Virus genome (UHGV): UHGV-0067666 | Length of the DNA: 24,833 nt | Direction: 5' to 3' (one strand) | Origin: a virus | Part shown: positions 1,065-15,288 of the stretch, in pieces | Position numbering within the stretch: the first letter of the stretch is position 1 | Layout of the letters: each line of letters opens with the position of its first letter | Position numbers and translations under genes: made by a program | The notes under the pieces: generated by a model | What the model was told of the DNA's origin: nothing | What the model saw: only the letters and a program-made list of their open reading frames with translations | Database searches by the model: none

Positions 1065-2096
1065 TCAAAAACTTGCTATTGATGTTGGTAGTGTTGCCAG
1101 CGGATTAAACCGTAATGCAGTTTCCAGGTGATCCGGTGCCAGATGTGCGTAACGCATAGTCATTTTTATATCGTGGTGTCCGAGAATTTTTTGTAAGGCC
1201 AGAATGTTTCCACCCGACATCATGAAGTGCGCCGCAAACGTATGGCGCAGAACGTGTGTCAGTTGACCGCGAGGGAGCACGATAGACGTTTTTTCCATCA
1301 CGGATAAAAATTGAAAATAGCAGTCTGTAAAGAAATTGAACCCATCAAGCGCCATGATCTCTTCGTAAAGCTCTTTACTGATAGGGATGCTTCTGTTTTT
1401 CTTCCCCTTCGTTCTTACAAAGGTAATTCGGTATTTGGTCACCTGTGAGCGGGTAAGATTTACGGCTTCACGCCAACGTGCGCCTGTGCTTAAGCATATC
1501 TTAACTACCAGTGCCAGAATTGGGTCCTGACGTTTGCAATCAGCCAGCAATTCAACAATCTGCTCATGGGTAAGCCATGCCATCTCTTTTTCTGCGATGG
1601 TGAATTTTCGCATGTTCTCCAGTGGGTTCGGATACGACCATTCGCCCAGACGGGATAGTTCGCTAAAAACACTACTTAGATAGCTTTGCTCCAGGTTAAT
1701 GGTGACCGGGCTTGCTCCTTTCTTCCATTTCTCGCTGAAGTAGATCTCGCCTGTCAGGCGTTTATCTCGATAGTGGGCAAACATTTTAGAGGTGAGATCG
1801 GTTGCAAGAGGATTGCCCAGAGCGTCAACCATCAACAGCAATTTGTCATAGACATGCTGCCCAGCTGTCAGAGATTTACCATGTAGTTTGAACCATAGTT
1901 CAACCACGTCTTTCAGTGTTCGACGATCCACTGATTCACCCAGCCAGGGCTTTGCTTCGGTTTCTTCCATCGTGTGGCGCTCAAAAGCCAGAGCTTCGCC
2001 TTTGGTGGCGAATTGTTTACGCACACGACGCCCACTACGTCCGGCGGGGTAACATTCGCAAAGCCATTTTCCTGTGGTGAGTTTTCGTACTGCCAT
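1065..2096 (-). CDS. int: Tyrosine site-specific integrase, P2/186 Int family
   Basis: ORF 1065..2174 trimmed to internal ATG (MAVRKLTTGKW...), matching the conserved P2-type Int N-terminus; C-terminal catalytic region with R...HxxR...Y pattern (LRHTFAAH, MRYAHL). Confidence 0.9.
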   Translation of the reverse strand: MAVRKLTTGKWLCECYPAGRSGRRVRKQFATKGEALAFERHTMEETEAKPWLGESVDRRTLKDVVELWFKLHGKSLTAGQHVYDKLLLMVDALGNPLATDLTSKMFAHYRDKRLTGEIYFSEKWKKGASPVTINLEQSYLSSVFSELSRLGEWSYPNPLENMRKFTIAEKEMAWLTHEQIVELLADCKRQDPILALVVKICLSTGARWREAVNLTRSQVTKYRITFVRTKGKKNRSIPISKELYEEIMALDGFNFFTDCYFQFLSVMEKTSIVLPRGQLTHVLRHTFAAHFMMSGGNILALQKILGHHDIKMTMRYAHLAPDHLETALRFNPLATLPTSIASF

Positions 2097-2282
2097 AAAA
2101 AATGCCCTCCAATAGAGAGCATTTTTACTGTATGTATAACCAGTGTCAATGTATGAAATCTTGCGACCATACATCTCACTGAAGCCATAATGAAGTTGGC
2201 TATTTTTTGCTATGTGAGTATGTAACTTTTGCGGTTAGCCTGCGGCTCATTGTTATATTAGGCGCAGATATAAAAGCAAAGT

Positions 2283-2474
2283 TTATCGTGATTTTTTAGT
2301 ACAGATTTTTTTGGATTTACTAATAGTTCCATCATTGCAAACAAATTTTCCATCGGAGGTACAGTGAGATACACCACCCTTTTTCCCAGAACAAGGATAA
2401 TTTTTAGCATAGGTAGTTAGTGGGCTTAATAACAAAGAGCATGATAAAACCACAAAAAATACTTTACCAAGCAT
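2283..2474 (-). CDS. Small secreted cationic cysteine-containing peptide (signal peptide plus ~40-aa Lys-rich mature region with 4 Cys)
   Basis: GGAGG RBS 8 nt upstream of ATG; N-terminal hydrophobic signal with AxA-like site (TYA-KN); AT-rich codon usage; lies between cI and int. Confidence 0.6.
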
Positions 2475-2489
2475 AGTTTCCTCCCGGTA

Positions 2490-3059
2490 TTATCTAACAT
2501 ATTTAACTGTTAAACTTATAATTTTTCCAATTATTTCAACATCTTCTATCTTGCAGTCGAAGGCTCTGTTTCCACCTTCAACGAAGATTCTTCCACCGGG
2601 TAAACGAGTAATGTCGCGGATTGTTATCTCGCCATCAATACTTATTACCCATTTACCATCACGTATATCATCAAATTCTTTATCACAAATAAATTCAGAA
2701 TTGTTATCTGTGATGACAAAAGGTTTTTTAAACGTAGAGGGTAGAAATCCCTTATCAAAAATATAAAAACCGTCTTCACGCAAGGCACCATCAGATAATA
2801 CATATTTAGCAACTTCCATAGTATTTGTATTACCTGAAGTTTGCTTTGAACCATGTCCAGTTGTGAGCCAATTAAGCGAGGTGCCCGTTTCAAGGGCGCA
2901 CTGGATTACCCATTCTGCTGGGAATGAGTCACGCATGTAGCGTGTGGCGAGTGTACTTTTAGAGATTCCTAAATGATCGCACAACGCCTGTCGAGTTTTG
3001 AATCCATAAGCTTCTACCATGCGCTCTATAGCGCCTCGTCCGCCTTTCTCCAAATTCAT
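2490..3059 (-). CDS. cI: Prophage repressor, phage 186 CI-like (N-terminal HTH, C-terminal oligomerisation domain)
   Basis: ATG at 3059 behind GGAG RBS; ~190 aa, HTH segment TRQALCDHLGISKSTLATRY; position between int and a divergent apl-like gene as in 186. Confidence 0.75.
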   Translation of the reverse strand: MNLEKGGRGAIERMVEAYGFKTRQALCDHLGISKSTLATRYMRDSFPAEWVIQCALETGTSLNWLTTGHGSKQTSGNTNTMEVAKYVLSDGALREDGFYIFDKGFLPSTFKKPFVITDNNSEFICDKEFDDIRDGKWVISIDGEITIRDITRLPGGRIFVEGGNRAFDCKIEDVEIIGKIISLTVKYVR

Positions 3060-3083
3060 GGTCACTCCAAGTGAACTTTTATC

Positions 3084-3112
3084 TTGACGATTTCACTGTG
3101 CGATCGTATGTT
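3084..3112 (+). promoter_or_regulatory. Putative rightward early promoter (TTGACG -17 bp- TATGTT) in the cI/apl divergent region
   Basis: Sigma70-like hexamers with 17-bp spacer seen directly; lies between the divergent repressor and excisionase-like genes. Confidence 0.35.
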
Positions 3113-3184
3113 TATGATGTTCACAAAATACAAACGATCCGTATTCGTCCTGATTAATCATCATTAAACGAGGAATGTTGCATC

Positions 3185-3406
3185 ATGAGACCTAACATTT
3201 CAATCACTCTTACCACGCCTCATGTGACTATTGAACGCTATAGCGAGCTGACAGGGCTGTCCATCGATACCATCAATGACATGTTGGCTGACGGACGCCT
3301 TATCCGTCACCGTCTGCGCAAAGATAAAAAACGCGAAAAAGTGATGATCAACATAGCAGCCATGACCGTTGATGCGCTTTCAGAATGCAATCTAAACCTT
3401 AATTAG
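3185..3406 (+). CDS. apl: Small HTH DNA-binding protein, Apl/Cox-like excisionase/repressor of lysogenic promoter
   Basis: 73-aa ORF divergent from cI, first gene of the rightward operon; HTH-like segment [18 protein letters not shown]; symbol assigned by position. Confidence 0.55.
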
Positions 3407-3438
3407 TTCGATTCTGAAATACATCAGAGGCATTGACC

Positions 3439-3948
3439 ATGTTTGATTACCAAGTTTCCAAACATCCACATTTTGATGAAGCCTGTCGTGCATTCGCACT
3501 GCGCCACAACCTGGTGCAACTGGCAGAACGTGCAGGCATGAATGTGCAGATTCTGCGGAACAAGCTGAACCCAGCTCAACCTCATTTATTAACCGCACCA
3601 GACATCTGGCTGCTTACCGATCTGACTGAGGACTCAACACTGGTAGATGGTTTTCTGGCACAGATTCATTGTCTGCCATGTGTTCCGATTAATGAGGTGG
3701 CAAAAGAGAAACTGCCGCATTACGTCATGAGTGCAACTGCAGAGATAGGACGTGTCGCGGCAGGTGCGGTTTCTGGCGATGTAAAAACCAGTGCAGGCCG
3801 TCGTGATGCGATCAGCAGCATTAACTCTGTAACACGACTGATGGCGCTGGCTGCTGTTTCATTGCAGGCCCGTTTACAGGCTAATCCTGCGATGGCGAGT
3901 GCAGTTGATACCGTGACTGGCCTCGGTGCTTCATTCGGTTTGCTGTGA
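3439..3948 (+). CDS. cII: CII-like lysogeny establishment activator (186 CII-like)
   Basis: ATG at 3439 behind AGAGG RBS; 169 aa; HTH near N-terminus; position directly after apl as in 186. Confidence 0.65.
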
Positions 3949-3955
3949 GGTGCTT

Positions 3956-4156
3956 ATGCTGACGAAAGAACCATCATTTGCATCGCTGCTGGTAAAACAA
4001 AGTCCGGCAATGCACTACGGTCACGGCTGGATCATGGGGGAGGATGGTAAACGCTGGCATCCGTGCCGTTCACAAGATGAATTGCTGGCAGAACTATCTA
4101 CGAAAAAACGGGGGAACAAATGGCTATTGAAGGCGCTGCGGCGACTGTTCCATTAA
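3956..4156 (+). CDS. Small early protein (Fil-position ORF)
   Basis: ATG at 3956 preceded by GAGG; ORF 3926..4156 in the track; function unknown. Confidence 0.4.
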   Translation: MLTKEPSFASLLVKQSPAMHYGHGWIMGEDGKRWHPCRSQDELLAELSTKKRGNKWLLKALRRLFH

Positions 4157-4461
4157 GCCCCGGTGAACGCCTGAGTGGACTTAATCACATAGCGGAATTA
4201 AGGGCAAAAGTTTTTGGCCTGAATATTGAGTCAGAGCTTGAGCGGTTTATTAAAGATATGCGTGATCCACGGGATATCAATAATGAACAAAATAAACGGG
4301 CACTGGCTGCTATATTCTTTATGGCAAAAATTCCGGCTGAACGTCATAGCATCAGCATTAATGAGCTGACCACTGACGAAAAGCGGGAGCTGATTAAAGC
4401 AATGAATCATTTTCGTGCAGTGGTGAGCTTATTTCCCAGACGGCTAACCATGCCGAATTAA
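4120..4461 (+). CDS. Hypothetical early protein, 113 aa
   Basis: ORF with ATG start, overlaps the 3' end of the previous ORF in another frame; no recognisable motif. Confidence 0.4.
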   Translation: MAIEGAAATVPLSPGERLSGLNHIAELRAKVFGLNIESELERFIKDMRDPRDINNEQNKRALAAIFFMAKIPAERHSISINELTTDEKRELIKAMNHFRAVVSLFPRRLTMPN

Positions 4462-4528
4462 CCAACTAATGAAATTAATGGCGTAAACCCGCCGGGCATC
4501 CCTTTATCTAAATTCAGGAGAATTGATT

Positions 4529-4762
4529 ATGCGTAATATTGAAACCCTCACGACTAAAACCGGACCGGATGACGCAGGGCTTAATATTTTACTGACAGAG
4601 GCTCGTCTGGAAGAACGCCGGGCAAGGGCTGAAGCAATGGCAGCTCGCCTTGATCGCCTGGCGTGTCATATCACATCCCGCCAGCTAAACCACGTCGAAG
4701 CGGCAGAACTGCTGCGTGTGACCGCTGAAGCAATCCAGAACGAAGCGCAGGAGATCCACTAA
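4529..4762 (+). CDS. Hypothetical early protein, 77 aa
   Basis: ATG at 4529 with AGGAG RBS 8 nt upstream; stop overlaps start of next gene (TAATG). Confidence 0.5.
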   Translation: MRNIETLTTKTGPDDAGLNILLTEARLEERRARAEAMAARLDRLACHITSRQLNHVEAAELLRVTAEAIQNEAQEIH

Positions 4763-4989
4763 TGGCTGATGCAATGGATCTCGTACAGCAGCGCGTTGAA
4801 GAAGAACGCCAGCGCCATATCCGTGCTGCCCGTGCCAAAACACCGGGCGTGTCTCGCGTGCTTTGTATTGAATGTGAAGCGCCAATTCCGCCAGCACGCC
4901 GCCGCGCCATTCTAGGAGTGCAGCTTTGCATTACCTGCCAGGAAATCGCAGAGCTGAAAGGTAAACATTACAACGGAGGTGCTGTATGA
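4762..4989 (+). CDS. TraR/DksA-family C4 zinc-finger protein
   Basis: CIECEAP...(17 aa)...CITCQ pattern (CxxC-x17-CxxC) in a 75-aa protein; translationally coupled to flanking genes. Confidence 0.7.
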   Translation: MADAMDLVQQRVEEERQRHIRAARAKTPGVSRVLCIECEAPIPPARRRAILGVQLCITCQEIAELKGKHYNGGAV

Positions 4990-5843
4990 GCACCATCCTG
5001 AAATGGGCGGGAAATAAAACCGCCATTATGTCCGAACTGAAAAAATACCTTCCTGCTGGCCCGCGACTGGTTGAACCTTTCGCGGGTTCTTGTGCTGTGA
5101 TGATGGCGACGGATTACCCCAGCTATCTGGTTGCGGATATTAATCCTGATTTAATCAACCTCTATAAAAAGATTGCCGCTGATTGCGAAGCGTTTATATC
5201 TCGTGCCAGAGTTTTATTTGAGGAAGCAAACAGTGAGCTGGCTTATTACAACATAAGACAGGAGTTTAATTACTCAACTGAAATTACTGATTTCATGAAG
5301 GCGATATATTTCCTGTATCTCAATCGTCACGGTTACCGTGGTTTATGTCGCTATAACAAGAGCGGGCATTTCAACATTCCCTACGGTAATTATAAAAATC
5401 CGTATTTCCCTGAAAAAGAAATTCGCGCATTTGCAGAGAAAGCCCCGCGGGCAACGTTTATCTGCGCGAGCTTTGATGAAACGCTGGCGATGTTGAAGGC
5501 GCGGGATGTGGTGTATTGCGATCCGCCTTATGACGGTACGTTTTCCGGCTATCACACTGATGGTTTCACTGAAGATGACCAGTATCACCTGGCATCCGTT
5601 CTTGAACATCGAGCATCTGAAGGACATCCGGTCATTGTTTCTAACAGTGACACATCCCTGATCCGTTCGCTGTATCGCAATTTCACTCACCACTACATCA
5701 AGGCAAAACGCAGCATCGGCGTGTCGGCTGGCGAGAGTAAATCTGCAACAGAAATCATTGCTGTTTCCGGGGCGCGCTGCTGGGTGGGATTTGATCCTTC
5801 GCGTGGCGTGGATAGTTCTGCTGTGTACGAGGTGCGTGTATGA
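4986..5843 (+). CDS. dam: DNA adenine methyltransferase, Dam-like (orphan N6-adenine MTase)
   Basis: N-terminal KWAGNK and EPFAGS motifs (AdoMet binding), catalytic DPPY motif; ATGA overlaps with both neighbours. Confidence 0.9.
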
Positions 5844-8260
5844 GTCATGCCGATATGAGCGACTCTAGCGGCTTTAACGAGGCCGCTGCAGCATTTTCAT
5901 GGAACGGCCCGAAAAAGGCCATTAACCCTTATCTGGACCCGGCGGAAGTTGCGCCGGTTTCTGCGCTTTCAAACCTGATCACTCTGTACGCTACCGATAA
6001 CGAGCAGGAACAACTGCGCCGCGAGGCACTGAGTGATCAGGTCTGGGAGCGTTATTTCTTTAATGAATCCCGTGATCCTGTCCAGCGCGAAATGGAGCAG
6101 GATAAGCTCATTAGCCGGGCAAAGTTGGCGCATGAGCAGCAGCGTTTTAACCCGGACATGGTCATTCTGGCAGACGTCAGCGCCCAGCCCTCCCATATCA
6201 GCAAGCCGCTGATGCAACGTATTGAATACTTCAGCAGCCTGGGCAGGCCAAAGGCTTATTCCCGCTATTTACGTGAGACGATTAAGCCATGTCTGGAACG
6301 ACTGGAGCATGTACGCGACAGCCAGCTATCTGCATCTTTTCGTTTTATGGCAAGCCATGTAGGGCTGGACGGCCTGCTGATTCTGCCTGAAATGAGTCAG
6401 GATCAGGTGAAACGCCTGTCTACCCTTGTCGCTGCGCATATGAGCATGTGCCTTGACGCAGCTTGTGGTGATTTGTATGCCACCGATGACGTTAAGCCAG
6501 AAGAAATCCGCAAGACATGGGAAAAGGTGGCAGCGGAAACCCTGCGTCTGGATGTCATCCCGCCTGCGTTTGAGCAACTCCGTCGGAAAAGAAACCGCCG
6601 TAAACCCGTGCCCTATGAACTCATTCCGGGTTCGCTGGCGCGTATGTTGTGCGCCGACTGGTGGTACCGGAAATTATGGAAAATGCGTTGCGAATGGCGG
6701 GAAGAGCAGTTGCGTGCTGTCTGCCTGGTCAGCAAAAAAGCATCTCCCTATGTCAGCTATGAAGCCGTGATGCATAAACGTGAGCAGCGCCGCAAGTCAC
6801 TGGAGTTTTTCCGTTCTCATGAACTGGTGAACGAAGAGGGCGACACGCTGGATATGGAAGACGTGGTAAACGCCAGCAGCAGCAACCCGGCGCACCGCCG
6901 CAATGAGATGATGGCCTGTGTTAAAGGTCTGGAGCTTATCGCGGAAATGCGCGGTGACTGCGCCGTTTTCTACACCATTACCTGTCCGTCACGTTTCCAT
7001 TCTACGCTCAATAACGGCAGACCAAACCCAACCTGGACAAATGCGACGGTAAGACAAAGCAGCGATTATCTGGTCGGCATGTTTGCTGCATTTCGTAAGG
7101 CGATGCACAAAGCCGGGTTGCGCTGGTATGGCGTGCGGGTGGCTGAGCCGCATCATGACGGTACAGTTCACTGGCACCTGTTGTGTTTCATGCGCAAAAA
7201 AGACCGCCGCGCCATTACTGCATTGTTGCGTAAGTTTGCCATCCGTGAAGACCGCGAGGAACTGGGTAATAACACTGGTCCACGCTTTAAATCTGAGCTG
7301 ATAAACCCGCGCAAAGGTACGCCAACAAGCTACATCGCGAAATACATCAGTAAGAACATTGACGGGCGTGGTCTGGCTGGCGAGATCAGCAAGGAAACGG
7401 GTAAATCCCTGCGTGATAACGCTGAATACGTTAATGCCTGGGCGTCTCTGCATCGTGTTCAGCAATTCCGCTTCTTTGGCATTCCGGGGCGTCAGGCTTA
7501 CCGTGAACTGCGATTGCTGGCTGGTCAGGCGGCAAGGCAGCAGGGTGACAAAAAAGTAGGTGCGCCGGTACTGGATAACCCGCGCCTTGATGCAATCCTG
7601 GCTGCTGCTGATGCTGGTTGTTTTGCCACCTACATCATGAAGCAGGGCGGCGTACTGGTTCCCCGCAAATATCACCTCATCAGAACTGCTTATGAAATCA
7701 ACGAAGAGCCGACCGCCTATGGCGATCACGGTATTCGTATTTATGGCATCTGGTCACCCATTGCAGAGGGCAAGATCTGCACTCATGCGGTGAAGTGGAA
7801 AATGGTTCGTAAGGCCGTTGACGTTCAGGAGGCGGCAGCCGACCAGGGCGCTTGCGCCCCTTGGACTCGGACTCGTGGCAATAACTGTCCCCTTGCTGAA
7901 AATTTGAACCAACAAGGGAAAGACAAATCAGCTGATGGGGATACCAGAACGGATATCACCCGCATGGATGACAAGGAGTTGCACGATTACCTGCACAGTA
8001 TGAGCAAAAAAGAGCGCCGGGAACTGGCAGCAAGATTACGCCTGGTTAAACCGAAACGGCGTAAAGACTACAAACAGCGAATTACAGAGTATCAGCGTCA
8101 GCAGCTCGTCTATGAACTGAAGTCCAGAGGATTTGATGGCAGCGAGAAAGAGGTCGATTTGCTCCTTCGCGGTGGCAGTATTCCGTCAGGAGCAGGCCTG
8201 CGTATCTTCTATCGGAACCAGCGTTTGCAGGAAGATGATAAGTGGCGGAACCTGTATTAA
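5840..8260 (+). CDS. A: Replication initiation protein A (rolling-circle nicking endonuclease, P2 gpA family)
   Basis: 806 aa; HWHLL metal-binding motif and YIAKYISKN tyrosine motif typical of P2 A-type initiators; position after early operon. Confidence 0.9.
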
Positions 8261-8352
8261 TCACGCGGGTTAACAATCCGTGCTCTTAATAATACCAGGC
8301 ATATCAGGCTGATGAACGTAAAAAAACGTTTTACATCAGTAAGATTATTATA

Positions 8353-8372
8353 TACTGTAAATATAAACAGTG
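8353..8372. promoter_or_regulatory. LexA (SOS) box TACTGTAAATATAAACAGTG
   Basis: CTG-N10-CAG with AT-rich centre, 17/20 match to consensus TACTGTATATATATACAGTA; overlaps a TATACT -10-like hexamer; sits ~40 bp upstream of the small ORF at 8414. Confidence 0.6.
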
Positions 8373-8413
8373 ATTATATATACAGTATTTCTTGTGGTGT
8401 CATAGGAGGAAAG

Positions 8414-8602
8414 ATGCAGGACTATTTTTTGGAGTCTTTGAAGCTCCAGCGCATTGATTTTTTTCTTAAGCTTGTAGCGGCTAGTGAGTGTAGTGATGAA
8501 GAGAAGGGGCTGGCTTTGCAGTGGGTTTCTGAACTAACAGATGAACTCATGGCAAAAATCAGAACCCACGAATACAACCGCTCAATGGATGTCATCAGTT
8601 GA
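8414..8602 (+). CDS. Small LexA-controlled protein (62 aa), candidate antirepressor (Tum-position gene)
   Basis: ATG at 8414 with AGGAGGA RBS; the longer TTG-initiated ORF 8312..8602 would include the promoter and LexA box. Confidence 0.5.
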   Translation: MQDYFLESLKLQRIDFFLKLVAASECSDEEKGLALQWVSELTDELMAKIRTHEYNRSMDVIS

Positions 8603-8612
8603 GGTGACTTTT

Positions 8613-8846
8613 ATGCGCATTGAAATAATGATCGATAAAGAGCAGAAGATTAGCCAGTCTACCCTGGACGCCCTTGAATCCGAGCTTTACCGTAATCTGC
8701 GCCCCCTGTATCCCAAAACGGTAATTCGTATCCGCAAAGGTAGCTCTAACGGTGTGGAACTGACCGGACTGCAACTGGACGAAGAAAGGAAGCAAGTGAT
8801 GAAAATTATGCAGAAGGTGTGGGAAGACGACAGCTGGCTGCATTAA
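8613..8846 (+). CDS. dinI: DinI-family protein (DNA-damage-inducible protein I homologue)
   Basis: 77 aa beginning MRIEIMIDKEQ with conserved DALESEL and C-terminal acidic W-containing tail, closely paralleling E. coli DinI (MRIEVTIAK...DALAGEL...WESADDWF); GAGG RBS. Confidence 0.8.
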   Translation: MRIEIMIDKEQKISQSTLDALESELYRNLRPLYPKTVIRIRKGSSNGVELTGLQLDEERKQVMKIMQKVWEDDSWLH

Positions 8847-8918
8847 GAAACGTTGCTGGCGTCTGAACTTGCTTCTGGCGTCAGCAAGGTTGAACAACGA
8901 GCTGTGCGAGGCGTTAGT

Positions 8919-8933
8919 TGATATAGTATCAAT
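8919..8933. promoter_or_regulatory. Perfect palindrome TTGATA-tag-TATCAA upstream of HNH gene; candidate operator or promoter element
   Basis: Seen directly, ~35 bp upstream of the ATG at 8969. Confidence 0.3.
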
Positions 8934-8968
8934 ATATAAAAGGTTTCTCGAAGTTTTAAGGTAAGGTT

Positions 8969-9688
8969 ATGACAACTATTAACAAGCATGGGTTATCTAG
9001 AACAATTCCTGAACCTGTAAAACTGGAGGTAAGGCAGCGCTGTGGCTTTGGTTGCGTTGTTTGTGCTTCTCCCATTGTTGAGTATGAGCATGTAATTCCC
9101 ACATACGCTGATGCAAAGGAGCACTCTCCAAATGCAATAGCACTACTTTGTCCTACGTGCCATGCGAAAGTAACGAAACGTCTTTACTCTAAAGAGAAAA
9201 TAATTAAAGCAATGGAATCTCCTGCAGCCTTACAAAAAGGGAATGTGGCCGATATATTGGACTTTTCTGATAGGCATCCAACAATAATATTTGGTGGTGC
9301 GACGTTTGAATCCTGTACTGTACCAATAATGTTTCAAAATGAGCCATTGTTAACCATTGAAAAAGAAAATAATGCTTTTCTTATTTCGGGTAAATTTTAC
9401 GATAGTCAAGGTATTGTTAATCTTGAATTAATTAAGAATGAGTGGGTTTGTAGTGCAAGGCATTGGGATGTTCAGGTTGTTGGTCCTAGAATAACTATTA
9501 TAGAAAAAAGGAAAGGTCCTCGTTTAATTATTAAAGTTGATGCGCCTGAAAGATTGATTGTGGAAAGATTAGATATGTTGGTTAAGGGGACTCGGATTGT
9601 AGGAGACGAACACAAGCTAAGAGTAGGTCCACATCAATTTCACAATTGTGGAGTTTCAAATTGCAATATTGGTTTCTGCTTTGGCTAA
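8969..9688 (+). CDS. HNH-endonuclease domain protein with uncharacterised C-terminal domain (~150 aa)
   Basis: N-terminal CGFGCVVC...EYEHVIP...NAIALLCPTCHAK, a CxxC...EH...N...CxxCH HNH signature; AT-rich codon usage unlike the neighbouring backbone. Confidence 0.7.
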   Translation: MTTINKHGLSRTIPEPVKLEVRQRCGFGCVVCASPIVEYEHVIPTYADAKEHSPNAIALLCPTCHAKVTKRLYSKEKIIKAMESPAALQKGNVADILDFSDRHPTIIFGGATFESCTVPIMFQNEPLLTIEKENNAFLISGKFYDSQGIVNLELIKNEWVCSARHWDVQVVGPRITIIEKRKGPRLIIKVDAPERLIVERLDMLVKGTRIVGDEHKLRVGPHQFHNCGVSNCNIGFCFG

Positions 9689-9801
9689 CTGGAGGTTGGA
9701 AAAAGACCATTTCCTGTAAGCTGAGTATTTCGTACATTTTTGCCAACGCATGTCTATGCCGCATGAAATCGCATGATCGTTTGAGGATCGTTTTTGCTGA
9801 T

Positions 9802-9829
9802 GCCCGCCAGAGCTGGCGGGCTTTTGCTT
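9802..9829 (+). terminator. Rho-independent terminator (GCCCGCCAG / CTGGCGGGC stem followed by TTTTGCTT)
   Basis: 9-bp GC-rich inverted repeat plus T-run seen directly, downstream of the HNH gene. Confidence 0.6.
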
Positions 9830-9870
9830 ATGTCATGCAGGTGCATGAAAACCACTACACAAAGCGGGCA

Positions 9871-9889
9871 GGCGTGGCGGGGATACGAG
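9871..9889. other. Candidate cos site (cohesive-end sequence) GGCGTGGCGGGGATACGAG
   Basis: From memory, P2/186 cohesive ends are 19-nt G-rich sequences beginning GGCG(A/T)GGCGGGGA; first 13 nt match that recollection; orientation relative to the portal gene matches P2. Confidence 0.35.
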
Positions 9890-9991
9890 CGCGCGCTAAC
9901 TCATAAATCCTAGATTATTAGTGGATTTATCTCATTGAAATGTGCACTATTCCCAGCATTGAGTTGTACCAGATGTCTTTATGGAGGGACT

Positions 9992-11758
9992 GTGGCTTTT
10001 GTAACTGATATTCGGCTTGAAGATAATGCTATTGCTGCACCTGCGACAGCACAGGTTATGGCTCAGAGGCTAGGATCTGTATTACGTAAGAGATATGAAG
10101 AATTCATCCATAAAAGAGAGTGTGCACCAGGCCAAGCAGACTATGATGTAAAAATGGCTAGCAGGGCTTTAGCTGCATTCACTATGTATCAGTTAGGATG
10201 TGTGGATGATAAGTATGCAGGGGAGTCTGTATGTGATAGTAGTGAAGATGGTGGTATAGATGGAATAGCAATCAACCATAACGAAAAAATCGTTGTTGTT
10301 GTTCAATCAAAATTTCACCAATCGGGAAACGGCACTTGGACAAGAGCCGATTTTATGTGTTTTAAGGATGCTTGTGAGAAGCTACAAAGTGAAAGATACG
10401 AATTATTTGATTCCATATTGCAAAATAAAAGCGGGGAAATAAGTGCGGCTTTAAGTAGTTTTGAATACAAGTTCATCTTTGCGATGGCGCATACAGGTAA
10501 AAAAGGTGCTGCAGAGGAAATATTAAATGATATGCGGGAATGGCAATATCAATTAAACGCTGCAGCTTTTACACCTGAGGATGAGCCTAAAGAGAACTGG
10601 GGATTTCAGGTTCATTTAATATCCTCTGAAGATATGATGCATTGGTTACAGAATGGCTCTCGAAATCAAATTGATCTTAACAGGGTTGAAATTGAGCGTT
10701 TTGGATTTTTGAATGAACCATATCAAGCTTTTTACGGGGCTATTAGTGGTGATCAAGTTGCAGAATGGTGGGAAGAGCATGGTGCTCGATTATTTACAAA
10801 AAACATAAGGAATATGCTTGGTAAAACAGAAGTGAATGAGGAAATAAAAAAGACAGCTATAGATAATCCTGATATGTTTTGGTTTTATAATAATGGGATT
10901 ACTGTACTGGTTAAGGAAGTTGTTCCTCATAGACGAAACGCAGCTCCTAATATAGAGAGAGGGATTTTTGATTTTCGTGATGTAAGTGTCATTAATGGTG
11001 CACAAACAGTCAGTAGTATTGGCGCATGTAAAGATGCGCTTGGTGAAAACATATATAGACTCAAAGTGCCAGCTAGATTCATTGTTATAGATGATGATAC
11101 TGATAATTTAACTGCAAATGCAATTACAAAAGCTAACAATTTCCAAAATAGAGTATTGGGAAGAGATTTTGCATCGCAGCAGGCAGATCAACATAGATTG
11201 GCAAGGGAGTTAGTGCTTGAAGGATATCAATATCAGTTACTAAGAACAGATGAAGATCATTCACAGACAAATACGAAAGTCATTGACTTGGATGAGGCGC
11301 TCAATGCACTCGCATGTTTAAGTAAAAATAATACGGTTGTATCGACACTAAAATCAAATCGCGGTAGGTTTTTTGAAAATTTTGAAGGCTCTCTATATAA
11401 AACTATTTTCAATCCAAGATTAAGTGGTTTAAAACTTATCAATACTGTTCTACATTTTAGAGTTATAGATAAGTTGATCGGTAAAACATTACTATCAGTA
11501 GATAAAACGACCCATAGTCGCAAGCATTTAATTATTACGCATGGTAATAGATACTATGCGTCTGTACTATTGAGCAACGTTTCTGGGATACATAATAGCT
11601 CAGAAATTCTTGTTCCAGATGAAAAAAATCTTTCCGAAGAATTAAGTGCATTAATTCAACGTGCTGAAGAGTACATTGAAGATAATTACCCGAATGCCTA
11701 TCCGGCAAGATTTTTTGCAAATCCAACGAAAATACAAGAGTTATACGATAATGTTTAA
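9992..11758 (+). CDS. AIPR-like (abortive infection phage resistance family) protein with N-terminal PD-(D/E)xK-like nuclease motif
   Basis: ORF 9935..11758 (TTG); likely start GTG 9992 behind GGAGGG, or ATG 10058; motif DGGIDGIAINHNEKIVVVVQSKF resembles a D...(E/Q)xK nuclease core; later NGITVL and INGAQT motifs recalled as AIPR-typical; AT-rich. Confidence 0.65.
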   Translation: MAFVTDIRLEDNAIAAPATAQVMAQRLGSVLRKRYEEFIHKRECAPGQADYDVKMASRALAAFTMYQLGCVDDKYAGESVCDSSEDGGIDGIAINHNEKIVVVVQSKFHQSGNGTWTRADFMCFKDACEKLQSERYELFDSILQNKSGEISAALSSFEYKFIFAMAHTGKKGAAEEILNDMREWQYQLNAAAFTPEDEPKENWGFQVHLISSEDMMHWLQNGSRNQIDLNRVEIERFGFLNEPYQAFYGAISGDQVAEWWEEHGARLFTKNIRNMLGKTEVNEEIKKTAIDNPDMFWFYNNGITVLVKEVVPHRRNAAPNIERGIFDFRDVSVINGAQTVSSIGACKDALGENIYRLKVPARFIVIDDDTDNLTANAITKANNFQNRVLGRDFASQQADQHRLARELVLEGYQYQLLRTDEDHSQTNTKVIDLDEALNALACLSKNNTVVSTLKSNRGRFFENFEGSLYKTIFNPRLSGLKLINTVLHFRVIDKLIGKTLLSVDKTTHSRKHLIITHGNRYYASVLLSNVSGIHNSSEILVPDEKNLSEELSALIQRAEEYIEDNYPNAYPARFFANPTKIQELYDNV

Positions 11759-11761
11759 ACT

Positions 11762-11788
11762 AAAGGGAGGTTGCCTCCCTTTTTTTTA
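11762..11788 (+). terminator. Rho-independent terminator (AAAGGGAGG-ttg-CCTCCC + T8)
   Basis: 6-bp GC stem, 3-nt loop, run of 8 T, immediately after the stop of the AIPR-like gene and abutting the 3' end of the convergent portal gene. Confidence 0.75.
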
Positions 11789-11789
11789 A

Positions 11790-12818
11790 TTAGAAATGGT
11801 ATTCTTGGAATTCAATAACACCTTCTTCTATGAAATTGTTTATTTCTTGTAATCTTTTTTGCAATGGCAATAATTCATTACGTACAAATACTTTACTCGC
11901 CTTCTCTACATCTCCAAAGCCCCCAACATTATTAGGCATTATCCCCATCATTTGCGGCGGCACACGGTGTGCCGCCATCATGTCGTCCCGACTCACGTTC
12001 TTGATATTCAGAAACTCATCCTTCGCCGCGACTTCTGACAACGGGATAATCTGAAGCCCGTCCTTTTTGCCGTTAGGAGAGTACATAAACAGGTTGCGGA
12101 AGTTGCCTGGCCCTTTGGCGCTTTTCATTGCGTTGCGGAGGTTGTTCACATCTTCTTGGTTCTGCGCGGCATCGGTCATGTACATGATGAAACCTGCATG
12201 GCTGCCGTTGATGTAATACTTACGGCGGAACAGTGTGGCGGACTCGTTGAGCAGGGCTGACGGGATGGCAGAAAGATAACCTGGCAGGCCGTAGATCTCC
12301 TGGTTGATGTCCGGTTCCATCAGATGAAAAATGCTGCCTTTCGTGAACTGATACGGCTGGGCTGTCATACCGTATTGCACAAACCAGTAGGTATCCAGGT
12401 CTAATCCGCGTCGGGTGTATTTTGCCAAAGCTGGCTCAAGGGCGATAACTTCACCAAAGCGGTTCGTGCGTTTCTCCAGGTAGGCGTTACCAAATACCAG
12501 ATAGTCCTGCACAAAACGCGAAAAAGCCTGCTGGCTAAGCAGCGGATGAGGGATATAGGTACTGGTCAGAATGTTGCACTTTACTGCAATCGGGGAACTG
12601 TGATGCACGGCGGCGCGGAAGGTGCGCGCCAGTCCATTAAAGCTGACGGGCGGCTCATACCAGCGATCCATCTGTACGCATTCCACATAGTCCAGCAGTT
12701 CGCGGCGGTCCAGCACGGGGATGGGATCACCAAAGCTGAAAGCCTCAGCCGTTGGGCCGTTGCTTGGTTTTGTGTCGTGATCAACTGTTACCTGCTTGGT
12801 GTTTTTACGTTTGCTCAT
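11790..12818 (-). CDS. Q: Portal protein (P2 gpQ family)
   Basis: 342 aa, size and position as P2 Q, immediately downstream of terminase-region genes on minus strand; start ATG overlaps stop of upstream ORF (ATGA). Confidence 0.8.
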   Translation of the reverse strand: MSKRKNTKQVTVDHDTKPSNGPTAEAFSFGDPIPVLDRRELLDYVECVQMDRWYEPPVSFNGLARTFRAAVHHSSPIAVKCNILTSTYIPHPLLSQQAFSRFVQDYLVFGNAYLEKRTNRFGEVIALEPALAKYTRRGLDLDTYWFVQYGMTAQPYQFTKGSIFHLMEPDINQEIYGLPGYLSAIPSALLNESATLFRRKYYINGSHAGFIMYMTDAAQNQEDVNNLRNAMKSAKGPGNFRNLFMYSPNGKKDGLQIIPLSEVAAKDEFLNIKNVSRDDMMAAHRVPPQMMGIMPNNVGGFGDVEKASKVFVRNELLPLQKRLQEINNFIEEGVIEFQEYHF

Positions 12819-13522
12819 TCTGCCAGTTCCTTGCTAGCGAGAGGCCATTCGCACATAAACAGCATTTTCCAGTCCTCTTCTGATAATTCTTTTTTCATAT
12901 CGTTCAGCCAGTTATCAGTAAACAACATTGCTCCAGATGCTGCTGCGTCATCTGCGGTGAACACCATGCTGGTTACGCTGTTGTTTCTGCATAGCTTTTT
13001 ATATTCCTGCCGTGCCTCTGGGTTAGGGCTGGGAGTGGTGTAGTAGGTGGCGTGGTAGTGTGCGTGCATAGAAATCCCTTTAGCGATGGCAATCATATTT
13101 CTCGGTGATTCACTCCAGGCATACTCTGACACGTAAACATTTCCACTGAGTGCGGAGGTGAGACTGCTGAGGTCGGTAAAATAAATTACTGCACCATTCG
13201 GAAGCTCCAGATGACTTTTGCCTGATTTTATTTTTCCAGTGTGCGTATAAGCTGCGGCCTGGCTTAAGAATGCTGATACACAGGCTTTGATTGCCTGCGC
13301 AGATGCTGTGCTGCAGCAGAGGAAAATCTGGTTACGCCCGGTATGCAGTGCATCGTTCAGGGCTTCATAGGAAAAAAAGAAATCCGCGCCTGCCTGGCGC
13401 ATTTTTGTGAGTACACGGTTTCTACTCTTTGGGCCAGTGTTCCACTCATACTGGTAAGCAAAGAAAAAGCTATCCACCGGAAGTCCCGCGATAGTCATGA
13501 GGTTAGTTGGGATTGGGGGCAT
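12815..13522 (-). CDS. Terminase large-subunit ATPase-domain paralogue (235 aa), extra gene between P and Q
   Basis: Aligns to the central region of the adjacent 588-aa terminase (e.g. FFFSYEALNDALHTGRNQIFLCCSTAS vs FYFAREALIDALLTGRNQIFLSASKAQ; GNVYVSEYAW vs GNLYLDEYFW; YYTTPS vs YFSTPS); GGAG RBS; start overlaps P stop (TGATG) and stop overlaps Q start (ATGA). Confidence 0.7.
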   Translation of the reverse strand: MPPIPTNLMTIAGLPVDSFFFAYQYEWNTGPKSRNRVLTKMRQAGADFFFSYEALNDALHTGRNQIFLCCSTASAQAIKACVSAFLSQAAAYTHTGKIKSGKSHLELPNGAVIYFTDLSSLTSALSGNVYVSEYAWSESPRNMIAIAKGISMHAHYHATYYTTPSPNPEARQEYKKLCRNNSVTSMVFTADDAAASGAMLFTDNWLNDMKKELSEEDWKMLFMCEWPLASKELAE

Positions 13523-15288
13523 CAAAAAATCTCCACAATATTGCTGGTATTGGCGGATTCGCCCTGCAGCGGTTCGTTAAACAGTGCGTGCATCGTTGCC
13601 CAGGCCAGATCGGCGTGGCTGGCTTCTTCGCTGCGGCTGGCTTCATAGGTTGGGCGGTTGCCGCTCGCGGTGGTGGCGCGACGGATTGCCATGAATGACT
13701 GCGCTATGTCGGTGTGTCCGGCGTCAAACTCCAGACGGCGGTGGCTGATAATGTCGTAGGCCTTGAGTACCAGGGCGTTTTTAACATTGGGGTTATAGAC
13801 AAACTCCCGGACGGCTGGAAAAAACGCTTTCACGTTCTCGTAAACCCCGTGGCCGACACCTGTCGAGTCGATGCCGATGTAGGTCACGTTGTACTGCTCG
13901 GTCAGTTTTTTGATGGCGTCAGCCTGGGCGCGGAAGTCCATCCCACGCCACTGGTGACGCTCAAGAATGCGGAACTTACCACCAGGCACGGCTGGCGGTG
14001 CCACCACTACGCATCCGGCGCTGTCGCCGTTTTGCGTACCTTTTGCCGGGTCATAACCGATCCACACTTCGCGCCAGCCAAACGGGCGCAGAGCCAGTGC
14101 ATGAAAGTCGGTCCAGACTTCCCAGCTGTCCACCATGCACGCCTGCAGCTCGCTGAGCGGGAACACGGACGCGAGATCGTCCACAAACTCGCACATCAGC
14201 AGGTTCTGGTATTCGTCCGGGCTGTACTCCATGCGCAACTGGTCAAGGTCGAACAGGTTACAGCCGCCGCGCACCGCATCTTCCACGGTGACTATCTGGC
14301 GGTATTGCCCGTCTGCGCACAGCAGGCCGGGGGCCAGATTGCTGTGGGACAGGTCGATGTCCACCTTGTCGGCCTTGTTGCGCCCACGGTTGAACAGCGC
14401 ACCGGACCAGAACGGATAAGCACTGTGTGTCAGGCTGGATGGCGTGGAAAAATAGGTTTGTCGCCATTTTTTGTGAATAGCCATACCGGAAGCCACTTTG
14501 CGCAGCTCCTGGAATTTCGGTATCCAGAAATATTCATCCAGATACAGGTTGCCGTGATAACTCTGGGCCGTGCGGGCATTGGTGCCGAGGAAGTAAAGCG
14601 TGGCTCCGTTAGGAAGCACCATCGGATCGCCTTTCAGCTCCACCTCGACTTCTTTGGCGAAGTCTATGATGTACTGCTTAAAGACGTGAGCCTGTGCCTT
14701 ACTGGCAGAAAGGAAAATCTGGTTACGTCCGGTAAGCAGGGCGTCAATCAGGGCTTCACGGGCAAAGTAAAAGGTCGCGCCGATCTGGCGTGACTTCAGC
14801 AGGTTGCGGATGCGGTTGGTTTTTCCGGCTTCCCACCAGTGGCGCTGGTAGTTGAACATGGAGGAATGGAAAATTTCTTCCAGCTTCTCAATCTGTTCAT
14901 CGGTGAAAACATTCTTTTCCGGCTGACGGCGCGGGCCTTTGTTGCGGTTGGCGACGTTAGGGTTTAAGTCGGCTTCGTTACCGCCATTGTTAAACTTGCC
15001 GATCCGCGCGTGGCGCTCCGACTGGCGCGCCAGCAGGTCAATTTCTTTGAAATCTTTCCCTTCTTTGTGCTCCTTCATAATGAGCTGGCAGTAGCGTGCG
15101 GCGGTGGTGAGCTGCATCTGATCCAGCGGCCCATAGTCACCCCACTTGTCGCGTTTTTTCCAGCTGTGAACGGTTGCAACTTTCTCGCCCAGCATTTCAG
15201 CAATGCGGGCTACGCGGTATCCCTGAAAGTACAGCAGCATGGCCTGCCGACGGGGATCGAGATCTGCGGGTGTCAGTGTGGTGTTCAT
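13522..15288 (-). CDS. P: Terminase large subunit (ATPase/nuclease, P2 gpP family)
   Basis: 588 aa, size as P2 P; ATPase-like core with hhhhDE motif LYLDEY; divergent from the scaffold operon as in P2. Confidence 0.9.
   Translation of the reverse strand: MNTTLTPADLDPRRQAMLLYFQGYRVARIAEMLGEKVATVHSWKKRDKWGDYGPLDQMQLTTAARYCQLIMKEHKEGKDFKEIDLLARQSERHARIGKFNNGGNEADLNPNVANRNKGPRRQPEKNVFTDEQIEKLEEIFHSSMFNYQRHWWEAGKTNRIRNLLKSRQIGATFYFAREALIDALLTGRNQIFLSASKAQAHVFKQYIIDFAKEVEVELKGDPMVLPNGATLYFLGTNARTAQSYHGNLYLDEYFWIPKFQELRKVASGMAIHKKWRQTYFSTPSSLTHSAYPFWSGALFNRGRNKADKVDIDLSHSNLAPGLLCADGQYRQIVTVEDAVRGGCNLFDLDQLRMEYSPDEYQNLLMCEFVDDLASVFPLSELQACMVDSWEVWTDFHALALRPFGWREVWIGYDPAKGTQNGDSAGCVVVAPPAVPGGKFRILERHQWRGMDFRAQADAIKKLTEQYNVTYIGIDSTGVGHGVYENVKAFFPAVREFVYNPNVKNALVLKAYDIISHRRLEFDAGHTDIAQSFMAIRRATTASGNRPTYEASRSEEASHADLAWATMHALFNEPLQGESANTSNIVEIF

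What the first reader, a model, noticed from the sequence alone, without database searches (positions are those of the whole stretch)
8969..9688. HNH-nuclease protein with unknown C-terminal domain in the variable region next to cos
A clear HNH signature (CxxC...EH...N...CxxCH) in the first ~70 residues is followed by ~150 residues with no motif I recognise. The gene is AT-rich, has a palindrome (TTGATATAGTATCAA) in its upstream region and its own terminator. It lies in the gene A-to-cos interval where P2 carries tin and old, so it may be a stand-alone defence or exclusion gene. Alternatively, HNH proteins beside cos assist terminase cleavage in some cos phages, although P2-type terminases are not known to need one.
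Basis: partly seen in the sequence, partly recalled or inferred. Interest (0 to 1): 0.65.

Follow-up and report, generated by a model that had tools for sequence, protein, structure and literature searches.

The report
Untested HNH nuclease cargo beside cos
This is a real single-gene insertion in the known defence hotspot of a P2/186-like prophage, encoding an HNH nuclease fused to a conserved all-beta domain of unknown fold; it was already catalogued in 2022 as an untested "likely nuclease", and is most plausibly an anti-phage gene, not a DNA-packaging helper.

Summary

The gene is the only ORF of a clean 830-bp AT-rich insertion (8918-9747) between the DinI-like gene and the cos flank. About 2% of related E. 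coli prophages carry it. Relatives sit in the same slot in Citrobacter and Cronobacter, in the nin region of lambdoid prophages, and scattered across many bacterial phyla and a few archaeal MAGs. None has a conserved partner gene.

The identical protein is system #159 ("HNH", "Likely a nuclease") in Table S5B of Rousset et al. 2022, and was not among the systems tested there. No defence HMM or paper characterises the family.

Best reading (about 0.5): a stand-alone anti-phage or anti-MGE nuclease whose beta domain gates or directs the HNH. The terminase-helper idea is rejected. The palindrome is not conserved and not exceptional. The terminator belongs to the phage backbone.

The parts
8918..9747 (+). 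HNH cassette: an 830-bp AT-rich single-gene insertion (GC 0.373)
   Evidence: The left flank, up to 8917, is conserved in about 1,070 E. coli genomes. Against the empty-site prophage L106, window 8800-8917 and 9748-9897 align while 8918-9747 replaces 9 bp, CTCTGTGGT.
8918..8932 (+). Palindrome TTGATA-TAG-TATCAA at the left cassette end; it contains an extended -10-like element, TGATATAGT (8919-8927)
   Evidence: Coordinates are. The TGATAT core is kept in Citrobacter (TGATATGAT) and Cronobacter (TGATATATA), but the right arm of the palindrome is not. The hairpin is not stable (z 0.44). There are 64 comparable repeats in the window. Promoter function is inferred, not shown; the sigma-70 scan, which requires a -35 match, did not call it.
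8958..8966 (+). Shine-Dalgarno-like AAGGTAAGG ahead of the ATG
   Evidence: Read directly from the sequence.
8969..9688 (+). CDS, 239 aa, HNH plus beta-domain protein (WP_000207842.1; phrog_6544)
   Evidence: It matches phrog_6544 over its full length, E 2.5e-111. dN/dS is 0.049 against the Citrobacter orthologue.
8969..9217 (+). N-terminal zinc-finger HNH (beta-beta-alpha-Me) nuclease domain, aa 1-83, basic
9218..9685 (+). C-terminal all-beta domain (aa 84-239, 17 strands), fold without a solved relative; invariant N157, D167, M203; near-invariant E158, W159, W166, G172
9802..9829 (+). Intrinsic terminator (GCCCGCCAGAGCTGGCGGGC + TTTTGCTT) in the phage backbone; the likely 3' end of the HNH transcript
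   Evidence: dG -20.1, z -3.7. It lies inside the cos flank shared with P2-like phages and with the empty-site prophage.
9871..9889 (.). cos-like cohesive-end sequence GGCGTGGCGGGGATACGAG (context)
   Evidence: Strains diverge immediately after it. The resemblance to the P2 cos sequence is from my own knowledge, not a tool result.
8353..8846 (+). Upstream backbone operon (context): perfect LexA box (CTGT-N8-ACAG at 8355-8370), orf62 (8414-8602), DinI-like gene (8613-8846)
   Evidence: the only zero-mismatch LexA box in the window; DinI, 1.3e-22; annotation.
8849..8891 (+). Strong backbone hairpin between the DinI-like gene and the cassette, without a U-run (possible partial transcription barrier)
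   Evidence: dG -29 for the 77-nt stretch 8844-8920 that holds it, z -2.57. It is conserved in prophages that lack the cassette.

Best explanation
The gene is accessory cargo of the P2-type defence hotspot. It is a self-contained, single-polypeptide DNase that most likely protects the lysogen, and so the prophage, against competing phages or other invading DNA.

Proposed mechanism, with the status of each step:
1. The basic zinc-finger HNH domain cuts DNA. This is inferred from the intact catalytic and zinc ligands.
2. The tightly packed, neutral-to-acidic all-beta C-terminal domain restricts when or on what the nuclease acts. The conserved polar/aromatic cluster N157-E158-W159 ... W166-D167 would be the site involved. 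It could sense a phage-derived ligand, protein or DNA feature and release the nuclease, or it could read a feature that host DNA lacks. This is inferred only.
3. No methylase, immunity gene or partner gene is needed. This is shown by the cassette's content and by the absence of any conserved neighbour.
4. Transcription probably starts at an extended -10 element at the cassette's left end, possibly with read-through from the LexA-controlled orf62-DinI operon, and ends at the backbone terminator before cos. This is inferred from sequence.
For: Location and mobility:
- The gene lies in the gpA-gpQ hotspot that holds old and tin in P2 and many validated defence systems.
- It is a clean 830-bp single-ORF insertion relative to an empty site, present in 21-23 of about 1,070 E. 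coli genomes with the same flank.
- The neighbouring cos-to-Q slot varies independently: AIPR here, TIR in strain D7, RES in Citrobacter, RT in Cronobacter.

Family contexts, which are typical of accessory or 'moron' genes:
- The nin region of lambdoid prophages.
- Opposite strand to the surrounding early genes in a Pseudomonas prophage.
- Acinetobacter plasmids next to toxin-antitoxin and AAA_15/21 genes.
- Next to a DUF6602 protein; an E. coli protein given the working name '6602' was validated as defence system DS-18.

The protein itself:
- The active site is intact and both domains are under strong purifying selection.
- The two-domain model is compact (pTM 0.87).
- Distant members add TPR or SEC-C modules.

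Base rates for untested cargo in these hotspots:
- 3 of 8 P2 systems cloned in 2022 were protective.
- 6 of 8 randomly chosen unknown P4 hotspot loci were protective in 2026.
- Rousset et al. list this exact protein as a hotspot system, 'Likely a nuclease'.
Against: - There is no experimental test of this protein or any relative in the literature searched.
- No PADLOC v2 model covers the family.
- Outside enterobacterial prophages the immediate neighbours are heterogeneous and often housekeeping genes. Only 2 of 150 are DNA methylases and 4 of 150 are integrases, so guilt by association is weak for the wider family.
- A different stand-alone E. coli HNH candidate (WP_252151320.1, 301 aa; relationship to this family unknown) scored non-defensive in the DefensePredictor screen.
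- This hotspot also carries non-defence cargo, such as partition systems and the CDT toxin.
- The gene lies on the same strand as, and just downstream of, a LexA-controlled operon. It might therefore be an induction-time function rather than a lysogen-expressed one.
Confidence: 0.5

Rival explanations
1. It is an induction-time (lytic-cycle) nuclease that serves the phage itself. It would be made by read-through from the SOS-controlled orf62-DinI operon. It would degrade host or competitor DNA, or process recombination or replication intermediates, in the manner of P1 Ref or lambda NinG/Rap.
For: - A perfect LexA box lies upstream of the same-strand orf62-DinI operon.
- There is no canonical terminator between the DinI-like gene and the HNH gene, only a hairpin without a U-run.
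- A DinI-like gene is a recurrent neighbour in two unrelated phage backbones: within 130 bp upstream in 8 P2-type loci and 0.26-2.7 kb downstream in 10 other viral loci whose HNH is of the 252-266 aa type found in lambdoid prophages.
- Lambdoid relatives lie downstream of the replication genes O and P in the early-gene region.
Against: - About 98% of prophages with the identical LexA-orf62-DinI operon lack the gene, so it is dispensable for induction and growth.
- There is no Pfam NinG or Ref-specific similarity; the Ref match is weaker than the Cap5 and McrA matches and covers only the HNH core.
- Only one full-length hit was found among 50,697 deposited phage genomes, and none in a virulent phage.
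- In 11 of 76 viral loci the gene lies on the opposite strand to both flanking genes.
- DinI genes are common in these accessory regions anyway.
Confidence: 0.2
2. It is a selfish, free-standing HNH homing-type endonuclease. It would cut the empty intergenic site in related phages and be copied in by recombinational repair, giving no benefit to host or phage.
For: - It is a clean single-gene insertion with a matching empty site (GAGGCGTTAG / CTCTGTGGT / GCATGTCTATG) in otherwise near-identical prophages.
- The 21 E. coli copies are 99-100% identical, which suggests recent spread.
- Scattered single-gene occurrences sit between unrelated, often housekeeping, genes across many phyla.
- The nearest BFVD hits are phage HNH proteins, two of them annotated as homing endonucleases.
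Against: - There is no intron or intein context.
- The C-terminal domain matches no known homing-endonuclease DNA-binding module (no Pfam hit at all).
- That domain is neutral to acidic on average (-2.7), which is unlike a DNA-binding domain.
- Its invariant residues are kept across relatives inserted at completely different sites, whereas homing enzymes diversify their recognition domain with the target.
- The same slot holds many unrelated cargo genes, so cassette exchange through the conserved flanks explains the pattern without homing.
Confidence: 0.12
3. It is a toxin-like addiction or stabilisation gene, or a virulence or fitness factor unrelated to phage defence. The nuclease would penalise loss of the element or act on other cellular nucleic acids.
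For: - It is carried on prophages and plasmids.
- It is retained in degraded Cronobacter prophages where gene A is truncated or missing.
- The hotspot also carries non-defence cargo.
Against: - No antitoxin or immunity partner is conserved anywhere.
- The 830-bp cassette holds only this ORF.
- A lone stable toxin cannot by itself give post-segregational killing.
Confidence: 0.08
4. It is a terminase-associated HNH that helps cos cleavage, as HK97 gp74 does.
For: It is an HNH gene about 180 bp from the cos-like site.
Against: - It is absent from about 98% of prophages with the same backbone flank.
- It is separated from the portal and terminase genes by cos and a variable gene, and lies on the opposite strand to them.
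- Relatives sit in the nin region, on plasmids and in chromosomes far from any terminase.
- It carries a 156-residue extra domain that the short terminase-associated HNH proteins lack (that comparison is from my own knowledge).
Confidence: 0.02

Closest known systems
P2-hotspot genetic system #159 ('HNH', 'Likely a nuclease'), Table S5B of Rousset et al. 2022 (PMC9122126)
   Same: The protein sequence is identical, the locus is the same (between gpA and gpQ of E. coli P2-like prophages), and it is listed as a single-protein system with 11 occurrences.
   Different: Nothing differs; this is the same entity. The paper only catalogued it. The sequence is absent from the table of systems tested for defence and no mechanism is proposed.
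P2 old and tin (the exclusion genes at this locus in phage P2)
   Same: They occupy the same gpA-to-cos/gpQ hotspot, are accessory genes, and protect the lysogen against other phages.
   Different: The proteins are unrelated. From my own knowledge, Old is an ATPase-TOPRIM nuclease and Tin targets T-even phage ssDNA-binding protein. Neither contains an HNH domain or this beta domain.
EcoKMcrA and other Type IV HNH restriction enzymes (TagI, ScoMcrA, VcaM4I)
   Same: - They are stand-alone zinc-finger HNH nucleases with no methylase partner.
- From my own knowledge, McrA is itself prophage-borne (e14).
- There is a weak PADLOC mREase_IV hit (E 0.0095).
   Different: - The domain order is reversed: HNH is N-terminal here.
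- That domain is not basic.
- Modification dependence is untested.
CBASS Cap5 (HNH-SAVED effector)
   Different: The C-terminal domain is not SAVED. No cyclase or other signalling gene accompanies the gene. The match covers only the HNH region.
HK97 gp74-type terminase-associated HNH proteins
   Same: They have an HNH fold and lie close to cos.
   Different: Gene position, strand, rarity among related prophages, the extra domain and the contexts of relatives all differ (see the membership test).
Phage P1 Ref (RecA-dependent HNH nuclease)
   Different: There is no sequence similarity beyond the HNH core. From my own knowledge, Ref has a disordered N-terminal DNA-binding region rather than a beta domain. 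Any link to RecA is speculation.

Membership tests
HNH (beta-beta-alpha-Me) nuclease superfamily | Match to the family profile above the curated threshold | tested here: met
   PF01844 matches aa 29-71 at 24.8 bits against a cut-off of 21.4. Many relatives fall just below the cut-off.
HNH (beta-beta-alpha-Me) nuclease superfamily | Catalytic His (general base) and a metal-binding H/N on the helix | tested here: met
   E40-H41 is present, with H41 invariant in 115 sequences. Position 65 is H or N across the family.
HNH (beta-beta-alpha-Me) nuclease superfamily | Central Asn of the H-N-H motif | tested here: inconclusive
   N55 is present in this protein, but the column is variable in the family (N/D/S/A/E/K). 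The invariant H52 may take its place.
HNH (beta-beta-alpha-Me) nuclease superfamily | Fold similarity to solved HNH domains, including the CxxC...CxxC zinc site | tested here: met
HNH (beta-beta-alpha-Me) nuclease superfamily | Metal-dependent nuclease activity | not testable with these tools
   This needs purified protein.
P2/P4 hotspot anti-phage systems (Rousset et al. 2022) | Located between gpA and gpQ next to cos in a P2-like prophage | tested here: met
   Gene A is at 5840-8260, the HNH gene at 8969-9688, cos at 9871-9889 and the portal gene at 11790-12818.
P2/P4 hotspot anti-phage systems (Rousset et al. 2022) | Variable cargo: present or absent among otherwise syntenic prophages | tested here: met
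   It is in 21-23 of about 1,070 genomes with the same flank. An empty site exists in L106. Other cargo occupies the slot in L107.
P2/P4 hotspot anti-phage systems (Rousset et al. 2022) | Measured protection against phages | not testable with these tools
   The protein is not among the systems tested in the paper. No later test was found.
Known defence families in PADLOC-DB v2 | Significant match to a defence-protein HMM over most of the protein | tested here: not met
   Only weak matches confined to the HNH domain were found (mREase_IV at 0.0095; Effector at 0.035). There is no family-wide hit in 34 diverse members.
Type IV (modification-dependent) HNH restriction enzymes | HNH nuclease with no cognate methyltransferase | tested here: met
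   The cassette holds a single ORF. Only 2 of 150 nearest neighbours across species are methylases.
Type IV (modification-dependent) HNH restriction enzymes | A recognisable modified-base reader domain (SRA, PUA-like, McrA N-terminal type, SBD) | tested here: not met
Type IV (modification-dependent) HNH restriction enzymes | Cleavage depends on modified DNA | not testable with these tools
   This needs an in vitro or in vivo assay with modified and unmodified phage DNA.
Terminase-associated HNH (HK97 gp74 type) | Encoded within or adjacent to the terminase-portal module and conserved across the phage group | tested here: not met
   It is separated from the portal and terminase genes by cos and a variable gene, and lies on the opposite strand. 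It is present in about 2% of related prophages.
Terminase-associated HNH (HK97 gp74 type) | Relatives in other phages keep the terminase-proximal position | tested here: not met
   Lambdoid relatives lie between the replication genes O/P and the antiterminator Q. Others are on plasmids or chromosomes.
HNH homing endonucleases | Intron or intein context, or free-standing next to a defined cleavage target with an empty allele | tested here: inconclusive
   There is no intron or intein. An empty allele exists, but the slot also holds unrelated cargo. Cleavage of the empty site is untested.
HNH homing endonucleases | A known sequence-reading DNA-binding module (NUMOD, IENR1, HTH, AP2 and the like) | tested here: not met
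   No such Pfam domain is found. The C-terminal domain is conserved across different insertion sites and is not basic.

The most novel reading that the evidence does not exclude
The conserved, acidic all-beta C-terminal domain, which has no solved or annotated relative and carries an invariant N-E-W ... W-D cluster, is a new kind of sensor or gating module. The HNH-plus-beta-domain proteins would then form a previously unrecognised family of single-chain immune nucleases. The family has at least 478 clusters at 50% identity, spanning many bacterial phyla and some archaea, and is carried by P2-like and lambdoid prophages, plasmids and chromosomal islets. A more speculative variant: its recurrent pairing with DinI-like genes and an SOS-controlled operon reflects a nuclease that is coupled to RecA or to DNA damage.
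Probability: 0.3. Interest if true: 0.6.

Novelty: new variant of a known kind. Interest (0 to 1): 0.4.

Why it matters
If the gene does defend against phages, it would add a compact (720-bp), partner-free nuclease system with a new regulatory or recognition fold to the known repertoire. It would turn an already catalogued but ignored entry of the P2 hotspot into a characterised family, one found widely in bacteria and in a few archaeal genomes. The small size, a confident structural model and clear candidate residues (H41; N157, W159, D167) make it cheap to test. If it gives no protection, it would be a useful negative example: a case where sitting in a defence hotspot does not predict defence, and possibly an SOS-linked phage nuclease or a selfish endonuclease instead.

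Tried and rejected
Searches that found nothing useful:
- Foldseek against afdb50 was not available.
- BFVD returned only HNH-core matches, none at E<=0.001.
- A profile search of PDB sequences found only HNH proteins, and the C-terminal sequence alone found nothing.
- Pfam, NCBIfam and PADLOC gave no family for the C-terminal domain or for the whole protein.
- PHROGs gave only 'unknown function'.

Partner-gene search:
- All-against-all clustering of ORFs in 80 species loci found no conserved partner.
- In 80 viral loci the recurrent neighbours were only phage-backbone genes and DinI.
- Nearest-neighbour Pfam and PADLOC scans showed no enrichment of known defence genes outside prophages.

Literature:
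- Searches by accession, PHROG id and keywords found no characterisation.
- The DefensePredictor supplements, as far as held here, do not contain the protein.

Ideas rejected:
- The palindrome as a regulatory operator. It is not conserved, not stable and not rare.
- 'Its own terminator'. The terminator is a backbone element.
- A terminase cofactor.
- NinG/Rap membership. There is no Pfam match.
- ORF 9646-9906, annotated 'hypothetical protein' in some genomes, as a partner gene. It runs through the cos flank, which prophages lacking the cassette also carry.

Full report
**The observation.** The window is part of a P2/186-like prophage. It carries an integrase, a D12-class adenine methylase, replication gene A (5840-8260), a portal gene (11790-12818, minus strand) and a terminase gene (13522-15288, minus strand). 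The ORF at 8969-9688 (+) encodes 239 residues and is annotated 'HNH endonuclease' (WP_000207842.1) in RefSeq. Pfam PF01844 matches aa 29-71 just above its curated cut-off (24.8 against 21.4 bits). In an alignment of 115 relatives, C29, C32, H41, P44, H52 and C61 are invariant, and C64, Y39 and E40 nearly so. The last metal ligand is H or N across the family. The gene is AT-rich: GC 0.379 against 0.531 for gene A.

- no PDB sequence relative;
- no Pfam family even at E<=10.

The 'unknown C-terminal domain' is therefore confirmed, and it is a real folded domain. It has its own invariant residues (N157, D167, M203) and near-invariant ones (E158, W159, W166, G172). dN/dS against the 86%-identical Citrobacter orthologue is 0.05 in both halves. 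The HNH half is basic (family mean +4.6) and the beta half neutral to acidic (-2.7). That charge fits a gating, sensing or protein-binding role better than a classical DNA-reading domain.

A phmmer search with the C-terminal domain alone, against 1.84 billion representative proteins, finds 478 clusters at E<=0.001. In most of the 150 listed the domain starts near residue 85, that is, behind the same HNH. The shorter hits look like truncated gene calls. Some distant members add a SEC-C motif, TPR repeats or a CxxCxxCC domain at the C-terminus. PHROGs holds the family as phrog_6544, 'unknown function'.

**The cassette.**
- The DinI-like gene and 71 bp after it are conserved in about 1,070 of 5,426 complete E. 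coli genomes. Similarity stops at 8917 in all but 23 of them.
- The cos flank from 9748 onward is shared with many P2-like phages.
- Against a prophage with an empty site (E. coli EEC_W5, L106), window 8800-8917 and 9748-9897 align, and 8918-9747 replaces just 9 bp.
- The gene is therefore the sole ORF of a clean 830-bp insertion.
- All 21 E. coli copies are 99-100% identical and chromosomal, and those inspected lie in P2-like prophages.
- The variable gene on the other side of cos changes independently: AIPR/AbiU-like here and in strain PSS-11, a TIR protein in strain D7, a RES-domain protein in Citrobacter, a reverse transcriptase in Cronobacter. The HNH gene is therefore not functionally tied to its downstream neighbour.

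**The regulatory details in the finding.**
- The palindrome is TTGATA-TAG-TATCAA (8918-8932), exactly at the left cassette junction.
- Repeats of that size occur 64 times in the window. The hairpin is no more stable than shuffled sequence. Its right arm is lost in the Citrobacter orthologue.
- What is kept in Citrobacter and Cronobacter is a TGATAT core. In the window it reads as an extended -10 element (TGATATAGT). This is a plausible but unproven promoter.
- The terminator hairpin at 9802-9821 is convincing (dG -20, z -3.7). It lies in the backbone cos flank and is present in phages without the gene.
- Upstream, the backbone operon orf62-DinI carries the only perfect LexA box in the window (8355-8370). 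From my own knowledge, this resembles the SOS-controlled p95/tum region of phage 186.
- Between the DinI-like gene and the cassette there is a strong hairpin but no U-run. SOS-driven read-through into the HNH gene therefore cannot be excluded.

**Where relatives live.**
- Close relatives (61-86% identity) occupy the same gpA-cos slot in Citrobacter and Cronobacter P2-like prophages, including degraded ones.
- Relatives at about 40% identity sit in the nin region of lambdoid prophages of E. coli, Enterobacter and Klebsiella, just after replication gene P or between P and the antiterminator Q.
- Other relatives are found on the opposite strand within the early region of a Pseudomonas prophage, on small Acinetobacter plasmids, in an integron-like array of small same-strand genes in Rhizobacter, and at the lysis end of a prophage next to a DUF6602 protein.
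- IMG/VR holds 119 viral contigs with a relative. Clustering and Pfam annotation of their neighbours show the lambdoid O/P ... Q/lysozyme context and the P2 context as the main ones.
- One genome per species across GTDB gives 253 loci. These span Proteobacteria, Cyanobacteria, Bacteroidota, Chloroflexi, Acidobacteria, Nitrospirota, Planctomycetes, Verrucomicrobia, Saccharibacteria and a few archaeal MAGs.
- No neighbouring gene family recurs with it in those loci. The 150 nearest neighbours are heterogeneous, with only 2 DNA methylases and 4 integrases and many housekeeping genes.
- The protein therefore works alone. The defence-island signal is strong in enterobacterial prophages and weak elsewhere.

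**What is already known.** Rousset et al. 2022 (PMC9122126) defined the gpA-gpQ interval of P2-like phages as a hotspot of anti-phage systems, noted that P2 itself carries old and tin there, and curated 169 'genetic systems' from 18,150 loci. The sequence does not occur in their table of systems tested for defence. I found no later paper that names or tests it. It is absent from PADLOC v2 and from the held supplements of the DefensePredictor study. In that study a different stand-alone 301-aa E. coli HNH candidate was not protective.

Base rates for untested hotspot cargo are fairly high. In 2022, 3 of 8 P2 systems were protective. In a 2026 study (PMC13586616), 6 of 8 randomly chosen unknown P4 hotspot loci were protective. 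The hotspot also holds partition systems and toxins.

**Interpretation.** The best-supported reading is a stand-alone, partner-free DNase carried as exchangeable cargo, most likely acting against competing phages or other invading DNA. The beta domain would control or direct the HNH. I put this at about 0.5. The sub-mechanism, sensor-gated or recognising a feature absent from host DNA, is open. A Type IV-like mechanism is possible but gets no support from the fold or charge of the second domain.

The main rival (0.2) is an induction-time nuclease serving the phage. It is suggested by the LexA-controlled operon upstream and by the recurrent DinI neighbourhood: 8 P2-type loci with DinI within 130 bp upstream, and 10 other viral loci with it 0.26-2.7 kb downstream. 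A selfish homing-type endonuclease (0.12) fits the clean insertion and empty site. It does not fit the conserved, non-basic second domain or the many unrelated insertion contexts. An addiction-toxin role (0.08) lacks any partner gene.

**Verdict.** It is a new variant of a known kind, hotspot-borne single-protein nuclease cargo, made distinctive by an uncharacterised and widely distributed beta domain. It is a cheap and reasonable experimental target rather than a surprise.

Noticed in passing
window 12815-13525 (-): An extra 236-aa ORF (TTG start) is wedged between the portal and terminase genes. It has a diverged Terminase_6N ATPase-like domain (Pfam E 3.7e-16). Other P2-like prophages have the portal gene directly abutting the terminase gene. 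The insertion is present in only 21 of 5,426 complete E. coli genomes, where it is annotated 'terminase large subunit domain-containing protein'.
   Followed up: partly
window 9935-11758 (+): An AIPR/AbiU-like gene (Pfam AIPR 7e-35; PADLOC AbiU 7e-25) lies between cos and the portal gene, with low GC (0.367). This is a second variable slot on the other side of cos. It holds a TIR protein in strain D7, a RES protein in Citrobacter and a reverse transcriptase in Cronobacter, independently of the HNH cassette.
   Followed up: partly
window 8353-8372, upstream of orf62 (8414-8602) and the DinI-like gene (8613-8846): A perfect LexA box (TACTGTAAATATAAACAGTG), the only zero-mismatch CTGT-N8-ACAG in the window, lies in a promoter-like region. 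This suggests an SOS-controlled operon like p95/tum of phage 186 (that comparison is from my own knowledge). It is on the same strand as the HNH gene, with no canonical terminator in between.
   Followed up: partly
L108-L187 (IMG/VR loci), e.g. L165, L156, L175: A DinI-like gene is a recurrent close neighbour of HNH-beta genes in two unrelated phage backbones. It lies within 130 bp upstream in 8 P2-type loci and 0.26-2.7 kb downstream in 10 other viral loci, 19 of 76 loci in all. This may only reflect shared accessory regions and remains unexplained.
   Followed up: partly
L016 (Rhizobacter sp. AJA081-3, CP059067.1) 2000-15000: The homologue sits in a long run of small, unrelated, same-strand genes separated by regular gaps (GFA, DUF6386, ABM, GNAT, NADAR and others). 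This looks like a chromosomal integron cassette array. attC sites were not searched for.
   Followed up: no
L017/L018 7226-7969: The gene immediately upstream of a homologue encodes a DUF6602 protein. An E. coli protein given the working name '6602' is reported as the validated defence system DS-18 in the DefensePredictor study.
   Followed up: no
L024, L025 (Cronobacter prophage remnants): The HNH gene is retained intact in prophages whose replication gene A is truncated or missing and which carry an IS element nearby. This hints at retention for the host's benefit.
   Followed up: no
window 9646-9906 (+): An 86-aa ORF with a TTG start overlaps the HNH stop codon and runs through the backbone terminator and the cos site. 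It is annotated 'hypothetical protein' in some RefSeq genomes (for example L003 6693-6962). It is probably spurious, because most of it lies in the cos flank, which prophages without the cassette also carry.
   Followed up: no
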